A stretch of 64,000 nucleotides of DNA from assembly GCA_964360025.1 (NCBI GenBank), contig CAYHUD010000001.1, positions 3,922-67,921 on the forward strand, written 5' to 3'. Under the pieces are notes generated by a model. It did no database searches, was not told the DNA's origin, and saw only the letters and a list, made by a program, of their open reading frames with translations. The translations under genes were made by a program, and so were the position numbers. The stretch comes from an uncultured Candidatus Saccharibacteria bacterium. GTDB lineage: Bacteria; Patescibacteriota; Minisyncoccia; UBA6257; JAUSGH01. This document shows positions 8,523-50,745 of this stretch, in pieces (position 1 is the stretch's first letter; each line of letters opens with the position of its first letter).

Positions 8523-8692
8523 AGAGAGATTCTTCGCGGGACGCCTGCCTGCCGGCAGGCAGGCTCAGAATGACGAAGGGGTTGTTACCCTCCTGGAATT
8601 AAATTCTGTCATCCTGAGGTTTACCGAAGGATCTCAAGTGAGATTCTTCGCGGGACGCCTGCCTGCCGGCAGGCAGGCTCAGAATGACGATC
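8523..8692. repeat. family A repeat array 1 (2 long units gagattcttcgcgggacgcctgcctgccggcaggcaggctcagaatgacga + 1 mirror unit tgtcatcctgag..gaaggatctc)
   Basis: exact 51-bp unit at 8525-8575 and 8639-8690. Confidence 0.85.
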
Positions 8693-8704
8693 AACCATAG
8701 AGAA

Positions 8705-8733
8705 TTTGACAAATGGGCGTAAAACCACTATAA
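8705..8733 (+). promoter_or_regulatory. sigma70-type promoter TTGACA-N17-TATAAA
   Basis: upstream of ORF 8780. Confidence 0.45.
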
Positions 8734-8779
8734 ATACTGAAGGCAGTCGTTCATATTCCCACCTCACTGGAGGGAGAAA

Positions 8780-8971
8780 ATGCCCACACCGGTAAAAGAA
8801 CCAACTCGACGCGGACAACTGGAAGCAGAATTTGCAGAGCATCGCTGGCGGCAAAAGAAGATGAATAAGTTGGAAGATGCGGCATTCCACCCTCTGTTGC
8901 CGAATCCGGATATGGCAAAAGTCGTTTGGCAACAGATGATCCAGGATCTTCAAATCCAAAATTCGCACTAA
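8780..8971 (+). CDS. small hypothetical protein (63 aa)
   Basis: GGAGGG RBS 6 nt upstream of ATG. Confidence 0.5.
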   Translation: MPTPVKEPTRRGQLEAEFAEHRWRQKKMNKLEDAAFHPLLPNPDMAKVVWQQMIQDLQIQNSH

Positions 8972-9105
8972 AAGTTAAGACGCGGAATCTCATTACTGCC
9001 CAGAAGGGGCAGTGGTGAGAATTTTTTTATTTATAATAAAACTTGCTTTTCACGACAATTTCTTTTATCATAGGTTTTAGTTTTATTGACAACGAAGGAG
9101 GTGCG

Positions 9106-9726
9106 ATGAAAGTCTTGATCGGGCTCATCGGGAAACCGCGCGTCGGCAAAGGAACTGTTGCCGGCATCATCACAAAACTTCTGGAGGAGAAAGGGATTAC
9201 AAGTAAAAACATGCGGTTCTCTGACCCGTTGAATGACATTCTCAAAATCCTCAATATTCCAAACTCCCGCACCAATCTGCAGAATCTTGCTCTCGTCTTA
9301 AGAAATGGGATCAGCGAAGATGTGCTTGCGCGTGCAATGGAACACAAAATCCTTCAAACAAAGGGGGATGTCATCATCCTGGATGGCATCCGGTGGATAC
9401 CGGATTTCGCGATGATAAAAAAGCTGGGCGGCATCACAATTTACATCAAGGCCAGTTTAGAAACCGCTTTCCGACGGACCCTGAGAAGTCAAGAAAAGGC
9501 AGGGGAATCCGAAACTACGCTGGATCAATTCCTCGCCCAACAAAAGGCAGAATCCGAAAAGTATATTGAGGCCATCGGCGAACATGCCGATTTCGTTTTG
9601 GAAAACGACGAGGACGACGATGCCTCTCCCTCGGCGCCAAAAGTTCTGACGCCGAGAGTGGAGATGATTATCGGGAATCTCGTAATCCCGATCCTGGAAA
9701 TCCCAACGGAGGAGGGGAAAGAATGA
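9106..9726 (+). CDS. P-loop NTPase, putative nucleotide/nucleoside kinase-like
   Basis: GGAGG RBS; P-loop GLIGKPRVGKGT near N-terminus; acidic C-terminal tail. Confidence 0.55.
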   Translation: MKVLIGLIGKPRVGKGTVAGIITKLLEEKGITSKNMRFSDPLNDILKILNIPNSRTNLQNLALVLRNGISEDVLARAMEHKILQTKGDVIILDGIRWIPDFAMIKKLGGITIYIKASLETAFRRTLRSQEKAGESETTLDQFLAQQKAESEKYIEAIGEHADFVLENDEDDDASPSAPKVLTPRVEMIIGNLVIPILEIPTEEGKE

Positions 9727-10199
9727 AAAGAATGTCCGTGATCGTTTTCGTTTCGCTGATTGCGATTACCCTCACTTACGTTTGGACGGGAAGTGTCGCC
9801 GCGCAGAACAAGCCGGTGGACGATCACCACAAGGCGAAGATTTTCAACTTCACGAATGTGAACGGCAGCGGCCGCGACAAGGCCGAGGCGGAAGTGAATG
9901 CGTGGCTTGCCGACAAGAACAACAAGGCGGCGGAGCCGATGGTGCTCTTCTGTTACAACGCACCGGCAGGAACCCTGCTTGTCACCGTCATCTGGAAGAA
10001 CGACGCGGTGACAAAGCCGTATCAGGTCAGGTTTTTTCCCATCACGGCCACAAACAGAGACAGCAAGAAAGAAAAGAACAAGAAGAAGAAGTCCCTGGAG
10101 GAAGAACTGAACGAGTTTTTCGCCGGAGTGACCCTGAAGCGGGTCTGGCAGGAGACCTCCGACGGAGTTGGAATGATCTTCGTCGTTTATCAGAAGTAA
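9723..10199 (+). CDS. secreted hypothetical protein (signal peptide MKRMSVIVFVSLIAITLTYVWTGSVAA)
   Basis: ATGA start/stop overlap with upstream gene; terminator follows. Confidence 0.55.
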   Translation: MKRMSVIVFVSLIAITLTYVWTGSVAAQNKPVDDHHKAKIFNFTNVNGSGRDKAEAEVNAWLADKNNKAAEPMVLFCYNAPAGTLLVTVIWKNDAVTKPYQVRFFPITATNRDSKKEKNKKKKSLEEELNEFFAGVTLKRVWQETSDGVGMIFVVYQK

Positions 10200-10205
10200 T
10201 CTCGT

Positions 10206-10250
10206 AACCCCATAGCTACAGCGTCAGGTGACGCACGCAGCTGTGGGGTG
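10206..10250 (+). terminator. rho-independent terminator (ccccatagctacagcg...cgcagctgtggggtgttttttt)
   Basis: long hairpin + T-run. Confidence 0.6.
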
Positions 10251-10259
10251 TTTTTTTAT

Positions 10260-10990
10260 TGAAAGTAGTTGGTAGTCCATAATTCATAATTCTTGATTCA
10301 TTATTCACTCCCTACCTCCCCCGCTCTCCCCTCCTGCTTGCCGCATTGCCTTATCCGGCAAGATATGGGGCTATAGTTGCCGATTGAAGAGTAGGGAAGC
10401 GGCAATCGGCAAATGTGGCAATTGCCGTGTAAAACAATGTGTTTTACATTTGTTTTACACTAATTTTAGAGCTTTTTAGAAGCCAATCGGTAGATAAAAC
10501 CTACATTATTTGAGTGTTTCGGGGTGTTTTACATAGTGTTTTCCATGGCCTACAAGCTCGGAAGCCGATCGTGCGATGAAACCTACATTATTTGCATTTT
10601 CGTGTTTTGGAGTGTTTGACGTTTTCCTTTTTTTACACACAATGGAAAACGTTAAACATCTTTTACCGGAAAAAAACTTTTTAAATTGCCGATTGAGGCA
10701 CATCAAGACGGCAATTCAATCGGCAAATGCGGCAATTTATGCGACTAATTGCCGCATCATACGGCAAAAAATGGTTGTAGTGTTTGACGTTAAACAAACA
10801 GTTAAAGTATGGCGAGATTGCCACGGGCCGACAACTGTCGGCCCTCGTAATGACAGATCGAGGAAAACGTCAAACATCGTTTTACACAGGAATTGGACAT
10901 GGATCATGAAACACGCATCATGGATCATGTGAGAACATGCGTCCCGTACTCCGTGTTATGTGTTATGTTAAACACACACGATGTTTCACG
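10260..10990. repeat. ~700-bp repeat-dense non-coding region (duplicated ~50-bp 'gccgattga.g...ggcaat.c..tcggcaaatg.ggcaatt' unit; 'aaacctacattatttg' x2; 'gtttgacgtt'/'aacgtcaaac'; 'gtgttttaca' motifs; family E copy at 10817-10855)
   Basis: direct reading; only short spurious ORFs. Confidence 0.6.
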
Positions 10991-10996
10991 TTTTCC

Positions 10997-11365
10997 ATGA
11001 CTAACCAAATTACGGGCAAAATAGGCGAAGATCTGGCGACCGACTATCTAACATCTCGCGGATATAAGCTAATTGAAAAAAACTACCGCCAGAAGTGGGG
11101 TGAGATTGACATAATAGTCAAATCATTGTCTGGTATTCTGGTCTTCGTTGAGGTTAAAACTCTTAACGGTATCCCCGACTCCGGCCTAACTCCCGAGGAT
11201 AACATCACCGCCTTTAAAATGCGGCAACTAAAAAAATGCGCTGAGTTTTACGCTGCAAAACATCCCGAGCTGATTAACGAAAAATCGGGGTGGCGAATTG
11301 ATGTTCTTGCTATAAATATTACCGAGGACTCGCCCGCCGATATCCGCCACTATGAAAATATCTAG
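10997..11365 (+). CDS. yraN: YraN/UPF0102-family endonuclease-like protein
   Basis: GEDLA.DYL...GY.LIEKNYRQKWGEIDII....GILVFVEVK signature; start at MTNQITGK. Confidence 0.7.
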   Translation: MTNQITGKIGEDLATDYLTSRGYKLIEKNYRQKWGEIDIIVKSLSGILVFVEVKTLNGIPDSGLTPEDNITAFKMRQLKKCAEFYAAKHPELINEKSGWRIDVLAINITEDSPADIRHYENI

Positions 11366-11386
11366 CCCCGCACTTTTACAATCTTT

Positions 11387-11429
11387 GGATACGCCACTTC
11401 CAAAGTAAAACTTTGGAAGTGGCGTATCC
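11387..11429 (+). terminator. perfect 19-bp stem hairpin (ggatacgccacttccaaag-taaaa-ctttggaagtggcgtatcc)
   Basis: follows yraN stop; weak T-run, so it may instead act as a regulatory hairpin. Confidence 0.45.
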
Positions 11430-11455
11430 ACGTTTGCATATTTGGATGCGGCGAA

Positions 11456-11483
11456 TTGACTTTCTGTAGGATGTTGCTATACT
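11456..11483 (+). promoter_or_regulatory. sigma70-type promoter TTGACT-N16-TATACT upstream of nusA
   Basis: hexamers read directly. Confidence 0.4.
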
Positions 11484-11551
11484 CATAATATGGATTAAAG
11501 GTCGCTCGCGAAGCGGCCTTTATTCTTGAATTACAAAATACAAAAAATAAT

Positions 11552-12751
11552 ATGATTGATTTAAAAAGTTTATCAAAAGCGGTGTCTCAGGTTGCAGAAG
11601 AAAAAGGTATTGATGCCAATCAGGTTTTGGACGCGATTGAGTCGTCTATCGCCGCGGCCTATAAAAAGGAGTATGAAAAGCGCGGTGAAATTATTAAATC
11701 CAAATTCAGTCTCAAAACCGGAGACATGAAGTTCTGGCAGGTGAAAGTCGTCGTGGACGAAACGACGGTTGATATGACCAAGCCCGAGGAAAACACGGAA
11801 GAAATAAATTCACAAAATGAGAGATCTGCCCCCGCCGAATTTACGACTGAAGGCGAAGACAAACTGCCGCGCTATAACTCCGACCGCCATATATTAATAG
11901 AAGAGGCGAAAAAAATTAAGGAAGATGTGAAGCTCGGAGAGGAAATGGAGTTCCCTCTGGAACCGCGGGAGGATTTCGGACGCATCGCCGCACAGACGGC
12001 AAAGCAGGTTATCTTACAGAAACTTCGCGAAGCGGAAAGAGAATCAATTCTTAAAGAATTCCACAATCGCGAAGGTGAAATCGTAAGCGGACTTGTGCAG
12101 AGAATTGAGCGCAATAATATCTATATTGATCTGGGACGCACCGTCGGCGTAATGTTTTTCAACGAATCAATTCCCAACGAACACTACCGTATCGGCGAAC
12201 GCCTGCGCTTCTTAATACTCGCCGTGCAAAATGACGCGAGACTGCCGGGAATTATTTTATCCCGCGCGCATCCGAAATTTATCAACAAATTATTCTCCAT
12301 TGAGGTGCCGGAAATTGCCGATGGCAGCGTGGAGATGAAGGCTATCGCCCGCGAACCCGGAAGCCGCACCAAAATCGCCGTCCACTCTAACGTCTCCGGT
12401 ATTGATCCCGTGGGATCCTGCGTGGGACAACGCGGCACGCGCGTGATGGCGCTTTCCAATGAGCTTGGACAGGAAAAACTGGATATCATTGAGTGGTCCG
12501 ATGACGCCGCGAAATTCATCGGCAATTCCCTCTCGCCCGCCAAGGTTTCCAAAGTGGAAGCCCTGCCGCACAACGAAGCCCGGGTTTATGTCCCCGAAGA
12601 TCAGCTAAGTCTCGCTATCGGACGTGGCGGACAAAATGTCCGTCTCGCGGCCAAACTCACCGGCTGGAAAATAGACGTGCGTTCCGAAACACGCCCCACG
12701 GAAGAACAAAACGGCGGGGTGGCGGACGCGGTTTCCGGCGCTAAAGAATAA
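11552..12751 (+). CDS. nusA: transcription termination/antitermination factor NusA
   Basis: N-terminal domain, S1 and two KH regions (…GSRTKIAVHSNVSGIDPVGSCVGQRGTRV…). Confidence 0.9.
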   Translation: MIDLKSLSKAVSQVAEEKGIDANQVLDAIESSIAAAYKKEYEKRGEIIKSKFSLKTGDMKFWQVKVVVDETTVDMTKPEENTEEINSQNERSAPAEFTTEGEDKLPRYNSDRHILIEEAKKIKEDVKLGEEMEFPLEPREDFGRIAAQTAKQVILQKLREAERESILKEFHNREGEIVSGLVQRIERNNIYIDLGRTVGVMFFNESIPNEHYRIGERLRFLILAVQNDARLPGIILSRAHPKFINKLFSIEVPEIADGSVEMKAIAREPGSRTKIAVHSNVSGIDPVGSCVGQRGTRVMALSNELGQEKLDIIEWSDDAAKFIGNSLSPAKVSKVEALPHNEARVYVPEDQLSLAIGRGGQNVRLAAKLTGWKIDVRSETRPTEEQNGGVADAVSGAKE

Positions 12752-12787
12752 AGTCGGATATTAAAAAATAAAAATTAAAAAAAATAA

Positions 12788-14755: not shown

Positions 14756-14857
14756 GAAGCGCGCGCAATACCACAAAACCCCGCTCTGGCAAAGAACGGG
14801 GTTTTGTGGTTAAGATAACTTAGGATAAAAGCACTTTGAAAAATGCGGAGGCGATCC

Positions 14858-15436: not shown

Positions 15437-15446
15437 GGAGGAAGAA

Positions 15447-21733: not shown

Positions 21734-21779
21734 GGAATAAGATTTATAAATATAGTAATGTAAAATTGCCGCGTCGCTG

Positions 21780-21855
21780 CGCTCCTCGCAATGACGGGGA
21801 AGACGCGACACAAGCTTGCCACGGGTCCAACAATTGTCGGACCCTCGCAATGACA
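21780..21855. repeat. family F (ctcctcgcaatgacggggaag, also at 44324-44345) + family E hairpin (ttgccacgggtccaacaattgtcggaccctcgcaatgaca, also at 10817-10855); overlaps tyrS start codon
   Basis: direct sequence matches between loci. Confidence 0.6.
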
Positions 21856-35697: not shown

Positions 35698-37920
35698 CTA
35701 CCACTTCTCAACAATCAGCCAGGACTTATTTTCCACGGGAAGTTTCTGATAAATTTCTTCGGTCAAATGAGGCATAAAGAGGTGTAGGATCTTTAATGAC
35801 TCAAGGAGAATATAGCCCAGAACGGCATTCGTATTTTCATCAATCTGCTTTTTGGACTCCTCAAGATAGATATCGCAGAAATCATGCCAGAAAAAATCAT
35901 AAACCTCATGGAGCGCCGCACCCATATTATATTTTTTAATGCCGGCCTCCACGGATTTTTTGACTGATTTGAGTCGCGCGATGATTTTTTTATCAGCGGC
36001 GGTTTTTGGCTTTACGCTTTGCTCTTTGCCCTTTGCGCTTCGCGCCAGAACAAACCGCGCCGCATTCCAAATTTTATTGGCGAACTTTTTACCGGCCATA
36101 ACTGCCGCCTCATCCCAACGGACGTCCTGTCCGCCCATCGCCTGCCAGATGATGCCAAACCTAGTGGCATCGGCGCCGTATTTTGAAACGAGCTCAAGAG
36201 GATCCACGCCCGTGCCCAGTGACTTAGACATTCTCCGGCCATCTTTTGCGAGCACGGTCGCGTGAATGAGCGCCGTCTTAAAAGGCGTTTTCCCACCCAT
36301 AAATTCCAGGCCGGAAAAAATCATGCGACCAACCCAGAGATTGATAATATCACGGGCGGTAATCAGGACATCTGAGGGATAAAATAATTGCAAATCGGTT
36401 TGAGAAAGTCCTGCAAACGGCCACAAAGCTGAAGAGAACCATGTATCCAGGACATCCTCTGACTGAACAAACTCCGCATCGCAAAATTCGCACCCAGGTT
36501 TTGCAAGAGATACAATCATATCTTTGCACTTTACTATTTCGTCTTCGTGGCCGGACTTGGGCACGCACTTCGGCTCGTGGAACCAAACAGGAAGACGATG
36601 CCCCCACCAAATCTGGCGGGAAATGCACCAGTCCTTAATATTTTTTAGCCAGTCAAAAAACGGTTTTTCAAAATTTTTGGGAACAATCTTTGTTTTACCG
36701 GATTTAACAGTTTTTGCCGTCGCTTTTGCCAGTTTATCCATATCCATAAACCATTGATTGGAAAGAATAGGTTCCAGAGTGCTGTCACAACGGTAGCACT
36801 TTGCCACATTGTGTTTGTAGTCCTCTATTTTTTCCATTAAGTTTTGGCTCTCCAGCTCCGCTATGACTTTCTCGCGACATTCGGAAATTTTCAAGCCATC
36901 GCACACCGCTCCGACATTTTTCATACGGCCGCGTTCGCTGATAATTTCATAACTCGGCAAATCATGGCGTCCGGCAATTTCGTTATCCAGCAAATCATGC
37001 GCCGGAGTTACTTTTACCATTCCGGTGCCAAAGGTTATATCAATAGCATCGTCGCCAATTATGGGAATCTCCCGATTAACTATCGGCAAGACAGCTTTTT
37101 TTCCGATCAAATTTTTATACCGCTTATCTTTTGGGTTCACTGCCACAGCCGCATCGCCCAACATTGTTTCCGGGCGGGTAGTCGCGACAACGATAAAATC
37201 TTTAGTATTGTCATTCTGAGGCGAAGCCGAAGAATCTTTTTGAGATCCTTCGGGTGCACTCAGGATGACAGAATCTGGAGTAGTACTTAAGAGGGGATAT
37301 TTAATAAAATAAAGCTTGCCCGTCTCTTCTTTGTGTTCAATTTCCAGATCGGAAAGAGAAGTGCCGCAACGAACGCACCACGAAACCATTCTTTTGCCGC
37401 GATAAATGAAACCTTTTTCGTAATAATGCACGAATACCTTAAGCACTTCCTCGCTATAAGACGGGTCCATGGTAAAACGCGTACGGCTCCAGTCGGCAGA
37501 AGCCCCGAGGCGTTTTAGCTGGTCAAGAATGATATTGCCGTATTTGGCTTTCCATTCCCAAACTTTTTCCACAAACTTCTCGCGGCCGAGATCAAAGCGA
37601 CTGATATTTTCTTTACGCAAGTTTTTTTCCACCACATTTTGCGCGGCGATACCGGCATGGTCTATGCCCGGGAGCCAGGCGGTTTTAAAACCCTTCATCC
37701 GATGATAACGAATCAAAATATCCGTCGTTGTGGCATTTAAGGCGTGACCCATGTGCAATGACCCTGTTATATTCGGCGGCGGAAGGAGGACGGTGTAGGA
37801 TTTTTTACCTTTTCCCGGAGCAAAAAAACCGCGCGAGAGCCACTCTCCGTAAATGCGGGTTTCCACTGACTTGGGATCGTAAGCTGATGACGCTTCCTGC
37901 TTTTTATTTAGGTCTTCCAT
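35698..37920 (-). CDS. valS: valyl-tRNA synthetase (compact form)
   Basis: HIGH (PPNITGSLHMGHAL), TTRPETMLGD, KMSKS (RMSKSLGT). Confidence 0.9.
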   Translation of the reverse strand: MEDLNKKQEASSAYDPKSVETRIYGEWLSRGFFAPGKGKKSYTVLLPPPNITGSLHMGHALNATTTDILIRYHRMKGFKTAWLPGIDHAGIAAQNVVEKNLRKENISRFDLGREKFVEKVWEWKAKYGNIILDQLKRLGASADWSRTRFTMDPSYSEEVLKVFVHYYEKGFIYRGKRMVSWCVRCGTSLSDLEIEHKEETGKLYFIKYPLLSTTPDSVILSAPEGSQKDSSASPQNDNTKDFIVVATTRPETMLGDAAVAVNPKDKRYKNLIGKKAVLPIVNREIPIIGDDAIDITFGTGMVKVTPAHDLLDNEIAGRHDLPSYEIISERGRMKNVGAVCDGLKISECREKVIAELESQNLMEKIEDYKHNVAKCYRCDSTLEPILSNQWFMDMDKLAKATAKTVKSGKTKIVPKNFEKPFFDWLKNIKDWCISRQIWWGHRLPVWFHEPKCVPKSGHEDEIVKCKDMIVSLAKPGCEFCDAEFVQSEDVLDTWFSSALWPFAGLSQTDLQLFYPSDVLITARDIINLWVGRMIFSGLEFMGGKTPFKTALIHATVLAKDGRRMSKSLGTGVDPLELVSKYGADATRFGIIWQAMGGQDVRWDEAAVMAGKKFANKIWNAARFVLARSAKGKEQSVKPKTAADKKIIARLKSVKKSVEAGIKKYNMGAALHEVYDFFWHDFCDIYLEESKKQIDENTNAVLGYILLESLKILHLFMPHLTEEIYQKLPVENKSWLIVEKW
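37208..37270. repeat. family A palindromic element inserted in frame within valS (tgtcattctgaggcgaagccgaagaatctttttgagatccttcgggtgcactcaggatgaca)
   Basis: encodes ValRS segment ...ILSAPEGSQKDSSASPQNDNT... Confidence 0.75.
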
Positions 37921-38385: not shown

Positions 38386-39630
38386 TTAAAGCGTCAAACC
38401 GGAGTCCGCAACAAGCGGATATTTTTTTCTGCGGGACTTTTGTTGTAGATAAGCGGCAACGGCAATCATTGCGGCGTTATCAGTGTTGTATTCAAAATCC
38501 GGAGCGAAGAACTCCGCCCCCGCCGCATTCGCGGCTTTTTTCAATTCTTTACGCAAAGTTTTGTTAGCCGCCACGCCGCCGCATAAAAATACCGACTTCG
38601 CGCCGAACTCGCGCACGGCGCGAATAGTTTTTGCAGTTAAAACATCAATCACGGCGAACTGGAAACTCGCCGAGACATCGGACAGCTGCTCTGCCGTCAT
38701 TCTGAAGTCCGACAATTGCCGGACTGAAGAATCTACTGAAGATTCTTCACGAGATCCTTCGCTCCGCTCAGGATGACTTACTAAACTTTTCAAGTAATAC
38801 AAAACCGATGTTTTGAGGCCGGAGAAACTGAATTCGTAATTTTTCTCCCGCATCATCGGGCGCGGGAAGGCGATCGCCTTGCCATTTCCCTTTTTTGCCA
38901 GCTTTTCAATCAGAGGACCGCCGGGGTAGGGCAGGCTCATCATTTTTGCGACTTTATCATACGCCTCGCCGGCGGCATCGTCGCGCGTTTCGCCTATTTT
39001 TTTCCATGTCTTCAAATTTTTCATCACTACAAGAATCGTGTGGCCGCCGGAGACAAGCAGCGCTACTGCCGGAAATTCCAATTTCCAATTTCCAATTTCC
39101 AATTTTGGTAACTCCTCGACAAGCTTGAGGGGTAATTTTTTATTTTTGGGTATTAGATATTGGATATTGGTAATTACAGTTTTTTGCGGCAGTAAAAAAC
39201 TGTACAGATGCCCCTCCAGGTGATTTACGCCTACGAGCGGGATTTTTAATTCTGCAGAAAGTTTTTTTGCGAACTCCACGCCGGTCCAGAGAGAGGGCTC
39301 AAGACCGGGGCCGACGGTGACGGCGAGCAGATCGGGAATAACGAATTTTGAATTATGAATCATGGACTTTTTATTCTTTATTCTTAATTCTTTATTCATA
39401 ATTCGTTTCCAAAGAATCGGCAGATTCTTCAAGTGCTCACGCTTGGCAAGGTTGGGCACCACTCCGCCCCAATGGCTATGGATTTTTGTCTGCGAGGAAA
39501 CCAGATTTTTTAGAACTTTAAAATGCGGGACTAAAACGCTTGGCGTTCGCCCAAGATTCTTCGGCTCCGTAACCTCCACAATGGCCATGGAAGTATCGTC
39601 GCAACTGGTTTCAATAGAGAGAATGCGCAT
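38386..39630 (-). CDS. tsaD: tRNA N6-adenosine threonylcarbamoyltransferase TsaD (Kae1/Gcp family)
   Basis: N-terminal MRILSIETSCDDTSMAIV; contains in-frame family A insertion and a 7-nt x4 tandem repeat. Confidence 0.85.
   Translation of the reverse strand: MRILSIETSCDDTSMAIVEVTEPKNLGRTPSVLVPHFKVLKNLVSSQTKIHSHWGGVVPNLAKREHLKNLPILWKRIMNKELRIKNKKSMIHNSKFVIPDLLAVTVGPGLEPSLWTGVEFAKKLSAELKIPLVGVNHLEGHLYSFLLPQKTVITNIQYLIPKNKKLPLKLVEELPKLEIGNWKLEFPAVALLVSGGHTILVVMKNLKTWKKIGETRDDAAGEAYDKVAKMMSLPYPGGPLIEKLAKKGNGKAIAFPRPMMREKNYEFSFSGLKTSVLYYLKSLVSHPERSEGSREESSVDSSVRQLSDFRMTAEQLSDVSASFQFAVIDVLTAKTIRAVREFGAKSVFLCGGVAANKTLRKELKKAANAAGAEFFAPDFEYNTDNAAMIAVAAYLQQKSRRKKYPLVADSGLTL
38695..38778. repeat. family A palindromic element inserted in frame within tsaD (gtcattctgaag...gaagattcttcacgagatccttcgctccgctcaggatgac)
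   Basis: encodes extra segment SHPERSEGSREESSVDSSVRQLSDFRMTAE. Confidence 0.7.
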
Positions 39631-42930: not shown

Positions 42931-42988
42931 TTTGAAAATTAAAATTATCTGATGATTGGAACCGGCAAACGGGCTTGCTTTTTGTCTA

Positions 42989-43291: not shown

Positions 43292-44248
43292 ATGAACCAG
43301 CAGGACGAGACCTTTTTCTGGGGTCGCTTCATCAAGCTGGTGAAGGCGGCCTACGAGCACTTCGTCATCTCGATGACCGCCAAGGAGGCGGTCAGCAAGA
43401 TGGCGGACGAGGCCAAGAAGAGCCTCGATGCGGCCTACCGCCTCAGCGATGACGACCCCACGAGAGGGGAAGCCATCGCCGCGGGGCGGGAGCTCCGCTC
43501 CGCCGCATTCTCCGGGAAGGCGGAGGCGGAAAAGAGCCGCGCTCTGGCGCAGAAGTGCCAGAAGGAAGCGGCGAAAGAAATGCAGAGCGTCATCGCGGAC
43601 GCTCTGCACACCGATTCTGCTCTGCAGGACGCGGAGCGGGGGGCTTGCAACGGCGCGCTCGGCACCCTACAGGCGGCGGTGGCGGGGGGTTCGCTCCCGC
43701 CCGGCGGTCTCAAGACCGCAGAGCTCGTGACCCGACAGGCAGGATATCCCCGCCTCGCCGGGAACATCGCGAAGACCATGGCGGTCTTCGCGATGATCGC
43801 CACCAGAGAAAGCGATCTAGCGGCTGTCTTCCCCGGGTGGTCTGCCGGGTATTACCGGGGAGTCAGGGGGCTCCTCGGTGCTCTCCGGGACCTGGACTGG
43901 AAAATCAAGGTCACGGATCAGCGGGTCCAGGACCTGCGTAAGCAGGACCCGCGGGAAGAACTTCTGGCTGCCGAACGGCGGCTGAAGGAGCTCCAGCGGG
44001 CCGCGTCCGTGAAGGATGCGGTGCTCGCGGAGCTCCGGGTCTCCGTCCCGGAGACCTGGTTCGCCGAGGGCCCCCGGAAGCAGGGCGCTTCCGAGGCCTC
44101 CGCCCCGATCCTCCTCCACCCCGCCACGGAGGTCATCCAGATGGAGACCTCGGTGGCGAAGGATGCCGAGCGCGACGCCCGTAAGGGCAAGCGCGACGCC
44201 GAAAAGGCAGCGAAGGCGGCCAAGCGGACCAACGTCCGCGAGGCCTAG
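43292..44248 (+). CDS. hypothetical alpha-helical protein (318 aa), strongly GC-rich gene
   Basis: long ORF with GC3-rich codons; no recognisable motif. Confidence 0.55.
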   Translation: MNQQDETFFWGRFIKLVKAAYEHFVISMTAKEAVSKMADEAKKSLDAAYRLSDDDPTRGEAIAAGRELRSAAFSGKAEAEKSRALAQKCQKEAAKEMQSVIADALHTDSALQDAERGACNGALGTLQAAVAGGSLPPGGLKTAELVTRQAGYPRLAGNIAKTMAVFAMIATRESDLAAVFPGWSAGYYRGVRGLLGALRDLDWKIKVTDQRVQDLRKQDPREELLAAERRLKELQRAASVKDAVLAELRVSVPETWFAEGPRKQGASEASAPILLHPATEVIQMETSVAKDAERDARKGKRDAEKAAKAAKRTNVREA

Positions 44249-44398
44249 CCACCGACCCGTTATTGCGAGGAACTTCTTCAAGGCAATCACTCAGAAAATC
44301 AACGAGATTGCTTTGTCGAGGACTCCTCGCAATGACGGGGAAGGAAACCGCCGACCCGGGCAAGTCCACTCGACGAGCCCGGGGAACCACACCAGTAA

Positions 44399-44456: not shown

Positions 44457-44477
44457 AAGGATACATATTTGGGGATT

Positions 44478-44610
44478 AGAGATCCTTCGCAAAGCTCAGA
44501 ATGACAAAAATTGTCATCCTGAGTGTTGCACGAAGGATCTCGAAAAAGAGATTCTTCGCAAAGCTCAGAATGACAGAGCTCTGCGTTCAGAATGACGAAA
44601 TAAATAATCT
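44478..44610. repeat. family A repeat array 2
   Basis: units agagatccttcgcaaagctcagaatgaca / tgtcatcctgag..gaaggatctc / gagattcttcgcaaagctcagaatgaca / ttcagaatgacga. Confidence 0.8.
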
Positions 44611-44663
44611 TCAAATATGTGCTCTTAAACAACAAAAAATGGCCCCGGTAAAAGAGGTGAGTT

Positions 44664-45398
44664 ATGGACATCAAGGGAATCCTCAACCAGGCGTTGGAAG
44701 TCGCTGACGTGGTCTATGTCGGCGATGATCGTGAAGTTTCGGTTTTCGCTTTTTTGGAGGAACAAAAGCGACAAGTAGGCCCGGCCTACCAGGCCGCAAA
44801 TGATGTGCGTCATCACTCCAAAATCGGAATGGTGGCGCTGAAGGAGAGTAACTACGCCCTGCTCGCCCTGTGCGCTCAGCGCATCGGAGAGAACATGGCC
44901 ACTCTCCGAAGATTGAACCTCCCCGCCGATCTGCTGTGGCAGCATATCGGCGAGGCTGGGCAGGAAGCCGGGGAGTTCATGCTGGTGCGTGAGCTCCACG
45001 AACTTCTCTTCCCCCGAGGCATGGTGCCCTCGGGATCCGAGCCGTTTGAGGGGGGGATGAATATCCCCTCAGCGACCGATCTCTGCCTCGAGCCGCAGGC
45101 GTGGCTCGCGGCATTGATCGACGCCACGAGCGAGCTGGGCAAGCTCGCCGTGGAACGGATGTGCCGCGGGGACATGACCCGCGCACAACATGTGGCGACG
45201 CTCCGGAGAATGCTGGAGATTGCCCGTACGGTGTACGGCTACCTTCAGAAATTTGAAGGGGCGGTTCCCATGATCATCAACAACAGCCGTCGCAGGGGGT
45301 ATGGAAATACCTTCCGCGGCGCGATGTACCGCATCGAGCGGCTGATTGAGAACAACGAGCTCGCCCTGCTCCGGATGGTGCAGGACGACTCCAAGTAA
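44664..45398 (+). CDS. hypothetical protein (244 aa), strongly GC-rich gene
   Basis: GAGGTG RBS; terminator follows. Confidence 0.55.
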   Translation: MDIKGILNQALEVADVVYVGDDREVSVFAFLEEQKRQVGPAYQAANDVRHHSKIGMVALKESNYALLALCAQRIGENMATLRRLNLPADLLWQHIGEAGQEAGEFMLVRELHELLFPRGMVPSGSEPFEGGMNIPSATDLCLEPQAWLAALIDATSELGKLAVERMCRGDMTRAQHVATLRRMLEIARTVYGYLQKFEGAVPMIINNSRRRGYGNTFRGAMYRIERLIENNELALLRMVQDDSK

Positions 45399-45423
45399 TA
45401 ATCGCCTGCTCGCAGTTTCAGGA

Positions 45424-45452
45424 CCCCCCACGGGATGTGGGGGGTTTTCATT
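45424..45452 (+). terminator. rho-independent terminator (ccccccacgggatgtggggggttttcattttt)
   Basis: hairpin + T-run. Confidence 0.7.
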
Positions 45453-45472
45453 TTTATGGGGAGAGGATCAAG

Positions 45473-45730
45473 TAGAGATTCTTCGCGCGACGCCTGCCTG
45501 CCGGCAGGCAGGCTCAGAATGACAAGGTGTAAAGCTCAGAAAGACAGGAGGAAAACGCGAATCAGGATGACCAAATGCGACGTTTAAGATGACAGAGGGG
45601 AACCGTGTCATCCTGAGGTCTACCGAAGGATCTCGGGATTGAGATTCTTCGCAAGGCCTGCCGGCAGGCAGGCAGGCTCAGAATGACAACGTGTTGCGCT
45701 TAGAACGACAGGGCTCTGCGCTCAGAATGA
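45473..45730. repeat. family A repeat array 3
   Basis: multiple gagattcttcgc..ctcagaatgaca, tgtcatcctgag..gaaggatctc and gcctgcctgccggcaggcaggc modules. Confidence 0.85.
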
Positions 45731-45752
45731 CGAAAAAGTAATAAGATAATTA

Positions 45753-46040
45753 TCAAAGATCCAATGATAAGTCCCTGAAATCAGGATTGTTTTCTTTAAT
45801 AAGAACTTCCTTTTTAATACGCGTCCAGCCTTTTATTTTCTTCTCCGCTAGAATAGCAAACTCTGGAGAATTAAATACTTCGTAGAATATCAGCTTGTTA
45901 AGATTGTATCTCTTTGTAAACCCATCAACTAATTTTTCTTTATGTTCCTGCATCCGACGACGAAGATTGTTGGTCATACCTGTGTATAAAACAGTGTGTA
46001 TTTTATTCGTAATTATATAGACAAAATAATTTTGGTTCAT
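45753..46040 (-). CDS. GIY-YIG nuclease family protein (small, ~96 aa)
   Basis: YFVYIITNKIHTVLYTGMTNNLRRRMQEH; six-frame N-terminal extension is repeat-derived. Confidence 0.75.
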   Translation of the reverse strand: MNQNYFVYIITNKIHTVLYTGMTNNLRRRMQEHKEKLVDGFTKRYNLNKLIFYEVFNSPEFAILAEKKIKGWTRIKKEVLIKENNPDFRDLSLDL

Positions 46041-46047
46041 AAAATTT

Positions 46048-46332
46048 AGAGATTCTTCGCGCGACGCCTGCCTGCCGGCAGGCAGGCTCAGAATGACGGA
46101 GAGTGGTGTCGGCGTCCTGGAATTAAATTCTGTCATCCTGAGCGAAGCGAAGGATCTCGGAATTGAGATTCTTCGCGAAGCTCAGAATGACTAGTGAATG
46201 TTTGTCATCCTGAGACTAGTTTCTGTCATCCTGAGGTTTGACGAAGGATCTCGGAAAAGAGATTCTTCGCGAAGCTCAGAATGACAAGGTGCAAAGCTCA
46301 GAATGACAAAGTGTTGCGCTCAGAATGACAAA
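46048..46332. repeat. family A repeat array 4
   Basis: five or more modules, begins 8 nt upstream of GIY-YIG start. Confidence 0.85.
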
Positions 46333-46340
46333 AATAAAAA

Positions 46341-47396: not shown

Positions 47397-47488
47397 TAGG
47401 CGTGATACTTATTTAAAGAAAAATCTACGGAAACGCAGGGTTCACGCTTTCTAAATATAGCATTTATGCGCCTTTTATTCAACCCCGT

Positions 47489-47540
47489 TAGAAGCCGCGA
47501 GGGCACACAGCGCGCCCCCTGCTTCTAACGGGGTCAACCC
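47489..47540. repeat. family D palindrome (ccccgttagaagccgcgagggcacacagcgcgccccctgcttctaacgggg)
   Basis: 12-bp terminal inverted repeats; second copy inside rsmA. Confidence 0.75.
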
Positions 47541-47563
47541 AACACTACCGAGACTCTAAAATA

Positions 47564-49432
47564 ATGGACGACCTTAATCCTCAGCAAAAACTAGCCGTCA
47601 ACCACCCCGGAGGACCGCTTTTAATCATCGCCGGAGCCGGATCGGGGAAAACAAAAACCCTGACTTCGCGTATCGTCCGCCTCGTAGAGTCCGGCGTCCC
47701 CGCCGCGGCTATTTTAGCCATCACCTTCACCAACAAAGCGGCTGAAGAAATGCGAAACAGAATAATGCGACAAGGGACAGGAGACAAACAAATCACCGCG
47801 GCGTTCATCGGCACATTCCACTCCTGGGGCGCGCGGGTTTTGAAACAGGAGGCGCGATTTTTCGGACGGACGGAAAACTTTTCCATCTTTGACGAGGACG
47901 ACAGCCTGCGGACGGTAAAAGCAATCGTCAAAGAAATGAATTTGGATAAAGAAAAATTTAATCCGGCGGGATTTCGCGCCAAAATCGGCGATATAAAAAA
48001 CGAACTTTTGTCTTCAGAGGATCTGCACGCTGAAGGAAGCGTCCGCGAAAAACTTGCCGCCGACATTTACGAAAAATATGAAGAGGCGCTCAAAAAAAAT
48101 AATGCTTTTGACTTTGACGACCTCATCACAAAAGTCGTTGTCCTTTTTATGCGGCATCCGGAGGTTCTGGAAAAATATAGAAATAAATATCAACAAATAC
48201 TCGTCGACGAGTATCAGGATGTGAACACCTCGCAATACCGATTGGTAAAACTTCTCGCGGAAAAACATAAAAACATAACCGTGGTCGGAGACGACGCGCA
48301 GGCGATTTACGCTTTCCGCGGATCGGACTTCCGCATCTTTTTAAACTTTGACCGCGACTGGCCAGATGCCACAATCATCAAGCTGGAAGAAAACTACCGC
48401 TCTACGGCGAACATCATTTCCGCCGCTTCAAACCTCATCAAAAATAATGTCCTGCAGAAACCGAAGTCGCTCTGGACGCAAAACGAAAACGGAGAAAAAA
48501 TCTCTATTGACGGCTTCGCGACCGAAGACGATGAGTCGTATTTTTTAACGACGCGCATTTTGGAAATAGTCCGCCGGACAAAAAATAATTCTTTACTAAG
48601 GATGGATCGCGATCCCCAGATCGCGATACTCTATCGGACGAATGCCCAATCACGCGCGATAGAACAAGCGCTCCTCCAAAACGGAATTCCTTACCGTATT
48701 TACGGCGGACTGAAATTTTATGACCGCATGGAAATCAAAGATATTGTTTCCGCGCTCGTCTCTGCTTCCAATCCCGAAAACGAGATGGCCCAAGAACGCA
48801 TCAGAAAAAATTTCGGGAAAAAAGAAGCTGCGCGTCTCATGGGTGAGATGCCGCGCCTCGCCCAAAAGTTACAACCCGCGGAACTCATCGGTTTTTTTCT
48901 GGAAGAAACAAGATATCTGGAATATTTGGAAAATAATTATAAAAATTATGCCGAACGGATTGAAAACGTCAACGAACTCATTTCTTTCGCCGGAACTTTT
49001 TCTCCAGATAATAAAACCCCCTCCGAAAAAGGAACAGGGCTTGCCGCTTTTTTGGAACAGATCAGCCTTGTGTCTTCGCTTGACACCCCAAACGGCAAAA
49101 TCAATAGCTGCTCCGGAAGGACGACGATCACCCTCATGACGATTCACGCTTCAAAGGGACTGGAGTTCAGTCATGTTTTTGTGGCGGGAGCGGCGGAGGG
49201 ATTTTTACCCCATGAAAGATCAATCACTGAAGAAAACGGACTGGAAGAAGAAAGGCGGCTGATGTATGTGGCAATGACGCGCGCCAAAGAACGGTTATTC
49301 CTCACTTTTTACGGCATTCCTTCGCGATTTCTCTACGAAATACCGCAAGAATTGACCGATTTTAAGGATCATGTAGCGACAAAACGGCGCCTAGCGTCGT
49401 TTGAGGACGAGGATTATATAAGTTATGATTAA
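47564..49432 (+). CDS. UvrD/PcrA/Rep-family ATP-dependent DNA helicase
   Basis: Walker A AGAGSGKTKTLTSRI, motif II VDEYQD, later helicase motifs. Confidence 0.9.
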   Translation: MDDLNPQQKLAVNHPGGPLLIIAGAGSGKTKTLTSRIVRLVESGVPAAAILAITFTNKAAEEMRNRIMRQGTGDKQITAAFIGTFHSWGARVLKQEARFFGRTENFSIFDEDDSLRTVKAIVKEMNLDKEKFNPAGFRAKIGDIKNELLSSEDLHAEGSVREKLAADIYEKYEEALKKNNAFDFDDLITKVVVLFMRHPEVLEKYRNKYQQILVDEYQDVNTSQYRLVKLLAEKHKNITVVGDDAQAIYAFRGSDFRIFLNFDRDWPDATIIKLEENYRSTANIISAASNLIKNNVLQKPKSLWTQNENGEKISIDGFATEDDESYFLTTRILEIVRRTKNNSLLRMDRDPQIAILYRTNAQSRAIEQALLQNGIPYRIYGGLKFYDRMEIKDIVSALVSASNPENEMAQERIRKNFGKKEAARLMGEMPRLAQKLQPAELIGFFLEETRYLEYLENNYKNYAERIENVNELISFAGTFSPDNKTPSEKGTGLAAFLEQISLVSSLDTPNGKINSCSGRTTITLMTIHASKGLEFSHVFVAGAAEGFLPHERSITEENGLEEERRLMYVAMTRAKERLFLTFYGIPSRFLYEIPQELTDFKDHVATKRRLASFEDEDYISYD

Positions 49433-49509
49433 ACATCGTTCAAAGAACGATGTTTAATGTGTGGGGGTGGGCGTGAAACACGGGGATTTAGAGACTAAGT
49501 ACAAATTCT

Positions 49510-50391
49510 ATGCACCAACGACTCGGACAACACTTTTTAATCAATAAATCGGCTATTGCGGAAACAATTGCCGCATTGACATTGGAGGAAAATGATTTAG
49601 TTGTGGAGATCGGGCCCGGGCATGGAGCTCTTACGCTACCCCTAGCTCAAAAATGTGTAGGTTTTAACTGCAAAATCATGGCTATTGAGAAAGACGCCGC
49701 GCTTGTGGATAACCTGTCAGAAACGATGCGGAAATACGGCAATATGGTGCAAATTATTGCCGGGGATGCGCTCGAAGAACTGCCTAAACTCGCAAAGCGC
49801 GAATCGCTGGGCGATGAAGACGGAAAAGGGTGGAAACTGGTGGGAAATATACCCTATTACATCACCGGAAAATTGCTAAGAATCATCGGGGAGCTAGAAA
49901 ATAAGCCCCACATTACGGTTTTGATGGTCCAAAAAGAAGTCGCGGAAAGGATAACAGCCACTCCAAAAGGGGGAATGAATCCCGTTAGAAGTAGCCCGCC
50001 CATAGGCCCTTCGGGCGCGCTTCGCGCGGGCGCGACTTCTAACGGGATGAATCTGCTTGCCGCCGCAACTCAATTCTGGAGCGATATTTCCATCATAAAA
50101 CGCTTAAAACCTAGCGATTTTGATCCGCCGCCAGAGGTGGACTCGGCAATAATTAAATTAAAGATCAAAGATCAAAGATCAAAAAGACGGGAGGCTGAGG
50201 GTTATTATAAATTGATCAAAATTGCCTTTAAACAACCAAGAAAGACGCTTTTGAATAACCTTGTAGATGGTCTTGATGATAAAAAAGAGGTGATTTTACA
50301 GAAAATCGCCGATTTGGGCTTTAACGAAAAAACTCGGGGGCAAGAATTGAGCGTGGAACAGCTTTTGGTTTTGGCGAGATCCTTCGGCTAA
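49510..50391 (+). CDS. rsmA: 16S rRNA (adenine1518/1519-N6)-dimethyltransferase RsmA/KsgA
   Basis: LGQHFL, VEIGPGHGALT, GNIPYYITGKLL; contains in-frame family D insertion; 3' end lies in repeat. Confidence 0.85.
   Translation: MHQRLGQHFLINKSAIAETIAALTLEENDLVVEIGPGHGALTLPLAQKCVGFNCKIMAIEKDAALVDNLSETMRKYGNMVQIIAGDALEELPKLAKRESLGDEDGKGWKLVGNIPYYITGKLLRIIGELENKPHITVLMVQKEVAERITATPKGGMNPVRSSPPIGPSGALRAGATSNGMNLLAAATQFWSDISIIKRLKPSDFDPPPEVDSAIIKLKIKDQRSKRREAEGYYKLIKIAFKQPRKTLLNNLVDGLDDKKEVILQKIADLGFNEKTRGQELSVEQLLVLARSFG
49979..50048. repeat. family D palindromic element inserted in frame in rsmA, flanked by ATGAAT direct duplication
   Basis: cccgttagaagt...acttctaacggg; encodes extra NPVRSSPPIGPSGALRAGATSNG between duplicated GMN codons. 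Confidence 0.7.
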
Positions 50392-50745
50392 CACCTCAGG
50401 ATGATAAAGAATAACCTCGGGACAACAAACACAACCCTGTCATTCTGAGCCTGCCTGCCCGCTTCGCCCGCCTAGACTCGGCGAGGCCTGGCCGTGGCTT
50501 CAGCGAGGCGAGCCGGCAGGCAGGCGTTGCGCGAAGAATCTCGAGATCCTTCGCTTCGCTCAGGATGACAAAAATTAGCCTCGGGATGGTCAACTAAGTA
50601 ACGAGATCCTTCGGCTAACACCTCGGGATGATAAAGAATAACCTCGGGACAACAAACACAACCCTGTCATTCTGAGCGTTGCGCGAAGAATCTCGAGATC
50701 CTTCGCTTCGCTCAGGATGACAAAAATTGGTTTCGGGATGGTTCG
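50380..50745. repeat. family A repeat array 5, includes ~225-bp tandem duplication (50386-50610 / 50611-50745) and nested long palindrome 50449-50526
   Basis: 'gagatccttcggctaacacctc.ggatgataaagaataacctcgggacaacaaacacaaccctgtcattctgagc' present twice. Confidence 0.85.

What the first reader, a model, noticed from the sequence alone, without database searches (positions are those of the whole stretch)
8523..50745. Modular palindromic repeat family A forming multi-copy arrays at five loci, with a wobble pattern hinting at RNA-level structure
Units 'gagattcttcgcg(N)gctcagaatgaca' and the mirror 'tgtcatcctgag(N)gaaggatctc' form long interrupted palindromes. They often carry the nested palindrome 'gcctgcctgccggcaggcaggc' (expanded to ~78 bp at 50449-50526). 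Arrays lie at 8523-8692, 44478-44610, 45473-45730, 46048-46332 and 50380-50745; a fragment is at 4563-4618. They are not CRISPR: spacing is irregular and units are mutually complementary modules rather than repeat-spacer. The recurrent t/c difference between arms (tgtcatTctgag vs tgtcatCctgag) pairs as G-U on only one strand, which would fit selection on a transcribed hairpin. Spurious ORFs with 'ILSEAKDL'-type peptides arise from them.
Basis: seen in the sequence. Interest (0 to 1): 0.75.

Follow-up and report, generated by a model that had tools for sequence, protein, structure and literature searches.

The report
Hairpin repeats of an Ssn nuclease
The repeats are real and are the DNA-hairpin partner sequences of a small single-strand-specific nuclease gene (Ssn family, described in 2025) that sits in the middle of them; this is a new example in an ultra-small groundwater bacterium, notable because copies are also inserted in frame into two essential genes.

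Summary
The window holds about 25 complete units and at least 9 solitary half-units at 8 loci, far above chance. In its informative orientation the unit is T-GTC-AT-NNN-GA-NN[loop]NN-GA-NNN-AT-C-TC. It comes in two stem subtypes (TCT/AGA and CCT/AGG) that always face each other as heterotypic dimers. A 95-aa single-domain GIY-YIG gene (45753-46040, minus strand) lies between two arrays. It is 41% identical to Neisseria SsnA, the ssDNA-specific nuclease that binds and cuts next to the hairpin repeat NTS (Chenal et al. 2025). Half of its 80 closest homologues, across many phyla, are flanked by the same unit type. The stem covaries strongly, while GTC, the trailing C and a tandem G.A loop are sequence-conserved. 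The T/C difference is compensated within each unit, and in the long inter-unit hairpin each strand carries one G.T and one C.A. The published SRM search motif does not match this class, so this is a new member, arguably a variant, of a known kind. How the repeats spread, and their role in this organism, remain inferred.

The parts
45753..46040 (-). ssn homologue: a 95-aa single-domain GIY-YIG nuclease gene flanked by arrays on both sides
   Evidence: Pfam GIY-YIG E 1.3e-16. 41% identical, without gaps, to the NTS-flanked N. gonorrhoeae ssnA locus: BLASTP 3e-25, hhalign 99.7%. Y8, Y19 and E66 are invariant in the homologue alignment and align with SsnA Y6/Y17/E64.
46048..46332 (.). Array directly upstream of ssn: 5 complete units (A-, B+, A-, B+, A-) plus 3 solitary 5' half-units. 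The first A unit carries the nested GC palindrome.
45473..45731 (.). Array directly downstream of ssn: 3 complete units (A-, B+, A-) plus 4 half-units. It begins just after the terminator at 45420-45448.
44478..44610 (.). Array with 3 complete units (one an A/B hybrid at 44479-44505) and 1 half-unit
8523..8692 (.). Array A(-) B(+) A(-); both A units carry the nested palindrome GCCTGCCTGCCGGCAGGCAGGC
50376..50745 (.). Array of 6 complete units, in the opposite overall orientation (A+, B-), plus divergent half-units. The A unit at 50439-50542 carries the 78-bp nested palindrome. The stop codon of the rsmA/ksgA-like ORF (49510-50391) lies in the first unit.
37210..37269 (.). A(+).B(-) dimer of exactly 60 bp (20 codons, VILSAPEGSQKDSSASPQND), read through in frame inside valS (35698-37920, minus strand)
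   Evidence: The closest orthologues lack the segment. Strong hairpin on both strands, z about -6.
38696..38777 (.). A(+).B(-) dimer with an extended A stem, read through in frame inside tsaD (38386-39630, minus strand), giving a 31-aa insert
   Evidence: Minimal orthologues lack any insert, and relatives carry other unit types at the same loop.
4563..4618 (-). One complete A unit (4588-4617) and one degenerate half-unit
44303..44338 (-). Third unit type, GTCATTGCGAGGAG...GCAATCTC
   Evidence: The same type flanks ssn homologues in L008 and L012-L014.
21768..21855 (-). Two fragments of the GTCATTGCGAG type, upstream of tyrS

Best explanation
The repeats are Ssn-related hairpin motifs. These are short DNA hairpins recognised, as single-stranded DNA and on one strand only, by the small GIY-YIG nuclease encoded at 45753-46040. 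Read 5'-GTCAT..., each unit folds as a 5-bp stem (AT plus three variable pairs), a tandem G.A/A.G internal loop, two or more further pairs and a variable loop. That loop can host a second, GC-rich palindrome. An unpaired GTC lies before the stem and an unpaired C after it. By analogy with Neisseria SsnA, the enzyme would bind the folded unit when DNA is single-stranded (during replication, repair or DNA uptake) and nick a few bases upstream of GTC. The ssn gene with its flanking inverted units looks like the autonomous copy. The dispersed heterotypic A.B dimers (56-116 bp, GTCAT at both outer ends) and the arrays look like non-autonomous, MITE-like derivatives that expanded in this lineage and occasionally landed in frame in tolerant loops of genes. 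Shown here: the anatomy, the covariation, the conserved flanks, the gene-repeat association, the protein homology, the insertions relative to orthologues, and the sparse, differently placed copies in relatives. Taken from the literature: ssDNA-only, strand-specific binding and upstream cleavage by SsnA homologues. Inferred: that this particular enzyme cuts these particular units, that it drives their spread, and what the host gains or loses.
For: Protein: Pfam GIY-YIG. 41% gapless identity to the NTS-flanked Neisseria ssnA, with tblastn E 4e-17, BLASTP 3e-25 and hhalign 99.7%. That passes the paper's own homology criterion of E<1e-10, and the catalytic residues are conserved. Association: arrays abut both ends of the gene, and the Wolfebacteria homologue has the same layout. 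In 80 species-representative loci, GTC-hairpin-C units number 241 vs 56 in shuffles; 40/80 loci have one within 250 nt upstream, 42/80 downstream and 31/80 both. Motif: 118/132 gene-proximal units begin GTCAT and end ATC, and 103/132 have the GA/GA loop, none of which the search imposed. Structure: 88% Watson-Crick at the five free pair positions vs 54% (max 57%) when partners are re-dealt, with at least 9 complementary stem-triplet types. Mobility: syntenic relatives have 1-2 units per 21 kb at other positions. The A.B junction occurs in at least 120 metagenome stretches; 60/80 fetched carry full dimers and only 2/80 have ssn nearby. Literature: SsnA binds NTS as ssDNA only and on one strand; the C after the palindrome is critical for binding and the 3 nt before it for cleavage; the gene is flanked by NTS.
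Against: The published degenerate SRM motif does not match these units: 1 chance hit in the window, and 0/80 homologue loci have a hit within 250 nt of the gene, although it does match NTS. Isolated minimal units are weak hairpins by nearest-neighbour DNA energies (-1.9 to -2.7 kcal/mol, z about +0.3). The thermodynamically dominant fold of a dimer is the long inter-unit hairpin, not two unit hairpins. No biochemistry exists for this enzyme or this unit class. GIY-YIG nucleases are not known transposases, and no mechanism of repeat spread has been shown even for Neisseria. No empty-site allele was found. Only 64 kb of the genome was available.
Confidence: 0.8

Rival explanations
1. The units are selected at the RNA level: transcribed hairpins acting as terminators, stabilisers, RNase targets or small RNAs.
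For: A.B dimers are very strong hairpins on either strand (z about -6). Arrays lie at gene ends. The in-gene copies must be transcribed within the valS and tsaD mRNAs. MITE-type repeats such as Correia and ERIC are known RNase substrates.
Against: The wobble pattern is not strand-consistent. The T/C change is compensated within each unit. Both orientations occur in each array. One array begins just after an intrinsic terminator. Rfam has no match even at E<=1. The conserved unpaired GTC and C correspond to the determinants of an ssDNA nuclease that does not bind RNA. Covariation itself cannot tell ssDNA from RNA.
Confidence: 0.07
2. The units are REP/BIME-type elements mobilised by a RAYT (IS200/IS605-like Y1 transposase) or MITEs of a conventional IS encoded elsewhere in the genome, and the GIY-YIG gene is a bystander.
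For: The clusters of alternately oriented hairpin units of two subtypes resemble BIMEs. The Ssn authors draw the same parallel. Only 64 kb of the genome was seen.
Against: A Pfam scan of all 60 window ORFs finds no Y1/RAYT or IS transposase. The same unit type flanks ssn homologues in about half of 80 loci from many phyla, which a bystander would not explain. The units begin GTCAT rather than the GTAG typical of REPs (the GTAG point is from my own knowledge). The in-gene dimers show no evident target-site duplication.
Confidence: 0.06
3. The repeats are host-domesticated sites with no current mobility. They would be binding or cleavage sites that modulate recombination of incoming ssDNA, as proposed for Neisseria, and the arrays would have grown by local duplication only.
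For: In Neisseria the NTS/SsnA pair lowers integration of transforming DNA. The window encodes a type-IV-secretion-like cluster and RecG and UvrD helicases. The tandem half-unit ladders look like local duplication.
Against: Dispersed solo dimers occur far from ssn in many genomes. Different unit types occupy the same tsaD loop in three relatives. In-frame copies occur in unrelated genes. All of these need insertion events, not only local duplication. This rival also overlaps with the best explanation, since domestication and mobility are not exclusive.
Confidence: 0.07

Closest known systems
NTS / Ssn-related motifs (SRM) with SsnA, Neisseria meningitidis and other bacteria (Chenal et al., Nat Commun 2025, PMC11893778)
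   Same: The protein is a ~95-aa single-domain GIY-YIG, 41% identical to Neisseria SsnA. The gene is flanked by oriented hairpin repeats. The unit begins (Y)GTCAT, has a palindromic stem and ends AT-C. There are many dispersed copies, clustered and mostly intergenic.
   Different: The stem is interrupted by a sequence-conserved tandem G.A/A.G loop and is AT-richer, so the published degenerate motif does not match. Two stem subtypes are paired as heterotypic dimers. There are ladders of 5' half-units and a nested GC palindrome in the loops. The host is a Patescibacteria MAG. There are in-frame copies in valS and tsaD. No biochemistry has been done.
REP/BIME elements with RAYT transposases (E. 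coli, Pseudomonas)
   Same: Short imperfect hairpins of two subtypes in alternating orientation form mosaic clusters in intergenic DNA. The associated gene is flanked by its own repeats. ssDNA hairpin recognition is proposed.
   Different: The associated enzyme is a GIY-YIG nuclease, not an HUH/Y1 transposase, and no RAYT is in the window. The conserved 5' motif is different.
Rickettsia palindromic elements (RPE)
   Same: Palindromic repeats are inserted in frame into housekeeping genes, adding peptide segments without destroying the ORF.
   Different: RPEs are ~100-150 bp, whereas here the inserts are 60-82 bp dimers of 25-40-nt units. Sequence relatedness was not tested. The Ssn paper lists Rickettsia among SRM-rich genera but does not link SRMs to RPEs.
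Bacterial MITEs such as Correia (CREE) elements
   Same: They are short, lack a coding gene, have inverted-repeat termini, and occur as many dispersed copies away from any enzyme gene.
   Different: No target-site duplication is evident, and no DDE transposase parent is known. Each terminus is itself a complete hairpin unit.

Membership tests
Ssn nuclease / SRM repeat system | Small single-domain GIY-YIG protein homologous to N. meningitidis SsnA (the paper's criterion is E<1e-10) | tested here: met
   95 aa. tblastn against the N. gonorrhoeae chromosome gives E 4e-17. BLASTP gives 3e-25, 41% identity with no gaps. hhalign gives 99.7%. The comparison used the N. gonorrhoeae orthologue, not the N. 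meningitidis sequence itself. CDD cd10448 could not be run.
Ssn nuclease / SRM repeat system | Catalytic residues shown by mutagenesis (SsnA Y6, Y17, E64) are conserved | tested here: met
   Y8, Y19 and E66 are invariant in the 31-sequence alignment and align with the Neisseria residues. The numbering offset is inferred from the alignment.
Ssn nuclease / SRM repeat system | The gene is flanked on both sides by its hairpin repeat | tested here: met
   Arrays 45473-45731 and 46048-46332 abut the gene. 31/80 homologues are flanked on both sides.
Ssn nuclease / SRM repeat system | The repeat is an oriented hairpin with a conserved 5' GTC before the palindrome and a C immediately after it | tested here: met
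   All complete window units meet this. 118/132 gene-proximal units in other genomes do as well. Covariation supports the stem.
Ssn nuclease / SRM repeat system | The repeat matches the published degenerate SRM search sequence HGTCWYN(0-2)YYVSBRHN(0-5)WNVSBRGN(0-2)RNCYNB | tested here: not met
   One unrelated hit in the window vs 0.26 expected. 0/80 homologue loci have a hit within 250 nt of the gene. The regex does match NTS. This is a search heuristic built from 29 genomes, not a definition.
Ssn nuclease / SRM repeat system | Binds and cleaves only ssDNA, on one strand, a few nucleotides upstream of the hairpin | not testable with these tools
   This needs purified protein and oligonucleotide assays.
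REP/BIME with RAYT | A RAYT (Y1/HUH transposase) gene associated with and flanked by the repeats | tested here: not met
   No such domain is found in any of the 60 window ORFs. The rest of the genome was not seen.
REP/BIME with RAYT | Clusters of two hairpin subtypes in alternating orientation | tested here: met
   A and B units always lie in opposite orientation.
MITE | Terminal inverted repeats plus a target-site duplication | tested here: inconclusive
   Dimers have inverted GTCAT termini. No duplication is visible at the valS or tsaD copies, and no empty site was available to fix the boundaries.
Rickettsia palindromic elements | In-frame insertion of a palindromic repeat into protein-coding genes | tested here: met
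   valS and tsaD carry read-through copies, as do IleRS, GT9 and Sua5-methyltransferase genes in metagenomes. Sequence relatedness to RPE families was not tested.
CRISPR array | Regular repeat-spacer periodicity with unique spacers | tested here: not met
   Spacing is irregular and the units are mutually complementary.
Known structured RNA (Rfam 15) | A match to a curated covariance model | tested here: not met
   Only tRNAs reach gathering score. At E<=1 there are only two chance miRNA hits.

The most novel reading that the evidence does not exclude
In Patescibacteria, Ssn-associated hairpin dimers act as a recurrent source of in-frame peptide insertions in essential proteins. The same permissive loops would be hit repeatedly and independently by different unit subtypes: the start of the CP1 region of class I tRNA synthetases and one loop of TsaD. 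If so, a selfish ssDNA-hairpin element contributes measurably to the many lineage-specific protein insertions of these reduced genomes. The GA-loop unit class found here would also be a major, phylum-spanning Ssn recognition class that the published motif misses.
Probability: 0.4. Interest if true: 0.6.

Novelty: new member of a known kind. Interest (0 to 1): 0.42.

Why it matters
It gives a dense, previously anonymous repeat family a name and a testable mechanism, and it corrects an attractive but wrong RNA reading. It extends the 2025 Ssn/repeat system to ultra-small groundwater bacteria. It also shows that the published search motif misses a widespread unit class with a conserved G.A loop, so genome surveys based on that motif undercount these systems. 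The heterotypic dimers, half-unit ladders and nested palindromes are concrete anatomy that any model of repeat spread must explain. The in-frame copies in valS, tsaD and IleRS offer natural test cases for how selfish hairpins reshape essential proteins. For biotechnology, each new enzyme-motif pair is a candidate sequence-specific ssDNA cutter.

Tried and rejected
- CRISPR was rejected on irregular spacing and the mutual complementarity of units.
- Known RNA families were rejected: Rfam finds nothing at gathering score or at E<=1.
- The one-strand G-U wobble argument was rejected by explicit pairing and folding of both strands.
- RAYT, IS transposases and Nop-domain (TIGR-Tas) proteins are absent from the Pfam scan of all 60 ORFs.
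- The published SRM regex was tried and does not match.
- The PDB has no Ssn structure; the nearest chain is UPF0213 at E 3.6e-4. NCBIfam has no specific model.
- Population polymorphism: the three Hainich contigs are the same clone as the window.
- An empty-site valS allele was not found in JGI metagenomes.
- A literature search for the unit sequence returned only primers and vectors.
- The source contig could not be retrieved by name, because exact look-ups of the ValRS and of P0001 failed.
- Most 'units inside long ORFs' in other phyla turned out to be arrays creating spurious open frames, not genes.
- The paper's supplements, where the N. meningitidis SsnA sequence might be listed, were not held. 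I used the N. gonorrhoeae locus instead.


Full report
**1. Observation**

- GCTCAGAATGAC with up to 2 mismatches occurs 33 times against 4.3 expected.
- GAGATTCTTCGC occurs 37 times against 8.9.
- The nested palindrome occurs 5 times against 0.

A half-site map gives 25 complete units and at least 9 solitary 5' half-units at 8 loci, about 1.4 kb in total.
- two loci inside long ORFs (37210-37269 and 38696-38777);
- the small gene lying between two of the arrays;
- a third, more divergent unit type (GTCATTGCGAG) at 21785, 21844 and 44326.

ENA contigs from Hainich groundwater metagenomes are 99.95-100% identical to the window across the arrays and the tsaD insert. An independent ENA ValRS (P0124) carries the same valS insert. 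The features are therefore not artefacts of one assembly. The organism is a Patescibacteria (CPR) bacterium; its closest named ValRS and TsaD relatives are Harrisonbacteria, Paceibacterota and Patescibacteria MAGs.

**2. Anatomy**

Read on the strand that begins GTCAT, a unit is (T/C)GTC-AT-YCT-GA-GC-[loop]-GC-GA-AGR-AT-C-TC.
- There are two subtypes: A (TCT/AGA) and B (CCT/AGG). The change is compensated within the unit.
- A and B always lie in opposite orientation. Where they meet at their ATCTC ends (spacer 0-6 nt) they form a heterotypic dimer with GTCAT at both outer ends.
- The GC-rich palindrome GCCTGCCTGCC/GGCAGGCAGGC occurs only inside loops of A units. At 50449-50526 it is itself split by a further palindrome, giving a -31 kcal/mol hairpin.
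- One to three 5' half-units (GTCATYCTGAGC plus a ~10-nt pyrimidine-rich tail, period 21-24 nt) often precede a complete unit in the same orientation. The same ladder occurs in an Anaerolineae genome (L038). I have no explanation for it.

**3. The gene**

ORF 45753-46040 (minus strand, 95 aa) is a single GIY-YIG domain (Pfam E 1.3e-16). A literature search led to Chenal et al. 2025 (PMC11893778). That paper reports the following for SsnA, a 94-aa single-domain GIY-YIG protein of N. meningitidis:
- It binds the hairpin repeat NTS (CGTCATTCCCGCGMAVGCGGGAATCYRG) only as ssDNA and only on one strand.
- It cuts a few nucleotides upstream.
- It ignores dsDNA and RNA.
- Its gene is flanked by NTS.
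- Homologues from three other species each cut near their own flanking motif.

The 'plasmids' collection happens to hold N. gonorrhoeae chromosomes, and the window's protein hits one locus there (E 4e-17). That locus is bracketed by canonical NTS copies. The proteins are 41% identical over 87 residues without a gap (BLASTP 3e-25, hhalign 99.7%). By contrast, the best PDB relative, a UPF0213 protein, scores only E 3.6e-4. Y8, Y19 and E66 are invariant among 31 homologues and align with the residues whose mutation abolished SsnA activity.

**4. Association beyond this window**

- A Wolfebacteria homologue (71% identical) has one unit ending just before its ATG and an inverted one just after its stop.
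I analysed the best 80, which span many phyla.
- In those 80, units defined only as GTC + stem + loop + stem' + C number 241 against 56 in shuffles. 40/80 loci have one within 250 nt upstream, 42/80 downstream and 31/80 both, typically as (+)-gene-(-).
- Of 132 gene-proximal units, 118 begin GTCAT and end ATC, and 103 have GA/GA at stem positions 6-7. The search required none of these.
- Many loci carry two stem subtypes in opposite orientation, as the window does.

**5. Structure test**

To avoid circularity I anchored units only on the unpaired conserved bases (GTCAT-NNN-GA-NN...NN-GA-NNN-ATC). In 233 units from 54 loci, 1023 of 1165 free pair positions (88%) are Watson-Crick and 34 are G.T. 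When 3' halves are re-dealt among units the figure is 54% (maximum 57%). At least nine complementary stem-triplet types occur. The hairpin is therefore under selection.

The G.A/A.G tandem mismatch is conserved in sequence. It exists only on the GTCAT strand; the complement has T.C/C.T. Covariation alone cannot separate ssDNA from RNA.

Thermodynamically, a minimal unit alone is weak (-1.9 to -2.7 kcal/mol, z about +0.3). Units with the nested palindrome reach about -11 kcal/mol. An A.B dimer folds as one long hairpin at -18.2 or -15.7 kcal/mol (z about -6). The nearest-neighbour parameters may not credit tandem G.A pairs properly. That last point is my inference.

**6.

In the dimer hairpin the outer helix (GTCATCCTGAG / CTCAGAATGAC) has C.A on one strand and G.T on the other. 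The inner helix (GAAGGATCTC / GAGATTCTTC) has the reverse. Each strand therefore carries one wobble and one mismatch, which the folds show directly. Further points against the RNA reading:
- Both orientations occur in each array.
- The array at 45473 starts 25 nt after a 13-bp terminator.
- Rfam has no match.
- SsnA does not bind RNA.

**7. Copies inside genes**

*valS.* The dimer is exactly 60 bp and reads VILSAPEGSQKDSSASPQND. The closest orthologues (68-73% identical) lack it, and it lies in a variable loop between KLYFIKYPL and IVVATTRPET.

*tsaD.* The window has a 31-aa insert where minimal orthologues have none. Two syntenic relatives have other states at the same loop:
- L086 has a single TCT-type unit in the same frame (SHSERSEES, against SHPERSEGS in the window).
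- L087 has a GTCATTGCGAG-type unit there.

*Metagenomes.* The A.B junction occurs in at least 120 stretches. 60 of the 80 fetched have the full dimer, and only 2 of 80 have ssn nearby. Three of 64 dimers lie in frame in Pfam-confirmed genes: an IleRS-type synthetase (within the catalytic domain, about residue 257-280), a GT9 glycosyltransferase, and the linker of a Sua5-methyltransferase frame. This recalls Rickettsia palindromic elements. For comparison, the Ssn paper reports 2% of NTS inside genes in N. meningitidis.

**8. Mobility**

The syntenic regions of two relatives (recG-tsaD-valS-prsW-hsp20) contain only 1-2 units per 21 kb, at other positions. The family is therefore present in relatives but not positionally fixed, and it has expanded in this lineage. 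I found no filled/empty polymorphism. Ssn homologues are very rare in viral contigs, with 2 loci.

**9. Rivals**

The window has no RAYT, IS transposase or Nop-domain protein. A RAYT elsewhere in the genome cannot be excluded, but it would not explain the cross-phylum association with ssn.

**10. Classification**

Every qualitative feature of the Ssn/SRM system that I could test is met. The one failure is the published degenerate search motif, which does not match this unit class or the units beside the 80 closest homologues. That motif is a heuristic built from 29 genomes, so I file this as a new member of a known kind, with variant features:
- the G.A internal loop;
- heterotypic dimers;
- half-unit ladders;
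- a nested palindrome;
- in-frame genic copies.

What the enzyme does in this organism, and how the repeats multiply, remain inferred.

Noticed in passing
window 46275-46329, 45677-45731, 45513-45600, 44564-44596 (all minus strand), 46204-46235 (plus strand); L038 2759-3835: Ladders of 1-3 solitary 5' half-units (GTCATYCTGAGC plus a ~10-nt pyrimidine-rich tail, period 21-24 nt) lie directly upstream of a complete unit in the same orientation. The same ladder occurs in a distant Anaerolineae genome. Each half can pair alternatively with the single 3' arm. Their origin is unexplained.
   Followed up: partly
window 8543-8564, 8657-8678, 45492-45513, 45656-45677, 46066-46087, 50449-50526; L087 19029-19125: A GC-rich palindrome (GCCTGCCTGCC/GGCAGGCAGGC) occurs only inside loops of A-type units and never in B units. 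Once it is itself split by a further palindrome. A similar one sits in the loop of a GTCATTGCGAG-type unit in a relative. It may be a second mini-element that targets hairpin loops.
   Followed up: partly
window 51626-62441: A type-IV-secretion-like cluster (PrgI-family protein, TraG/VirB4-like ATPase, T4SS pilin) lies among several large ORFs with no Pfam match. It may be relevant to DNA traffic, given that SsnA acts on incoming ssDNA in Neisseria.
   Followed up: no
window 49510-50391: The stop codon of the rRNA adenine dimethylase (RsmA/KsgA-like) ORF lies inside the first repeat unit, so its last residues are repeat-encoded.
   Followed up: no
window 45753-46136: The public annotation calls the ssn gene as 127 aa (P0001), starting inside the upstream repeat. 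Homologues of 92-97 aa support the ATG at 46040.
   Followed up: yes
ValRS orthologues P0128, P0133, P0142, P0145, P0157, P0158; TsaD orthologues P0252, P0256, P0263, P0268 and others: Many Patescibacteria orthologues carry different insertions at the same two loops. Some have peptide signatures typical of translated hairpin repeats (for example SHLERSKES and RLRNDS). The underlying DNA was not examined except for L086 and L087.
   Followed up: partly
L116 4922-6316: An A.B dimer forms the in-frame linker between a Sua5/YrdC domain and a TrmB-like methyltransferase domain in one open frame. This may be a repeat-mediated fusion of two adjacent genes.
   Followed up: no
L082 1495-1773 (N. gonorrhoeae NZ_CP119142.1): The record is a 2.17-Mb chromosome filed as a plasmid in PLSDB. 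In this strain the ssnA reading frame is out of register with the upstream ATG, and the longest ORF starts at an internal TTG (71 aa). It may be a frameshifted allele.
   Followed up: no
window 44664-45398 and 43292-44248: Two ORFs of 244 and 318 aa with no Pfam match lie between or beside the arrays near ssn. Their function is unknown.
   Followed up: no
window 4661-5620: A XerC/D-type tyrosine recombinase gene lies immediately next to the repeat fragment at 4563-4618. It is probably the housekeeping dimer-resolution enzyme.
   Followed up: no
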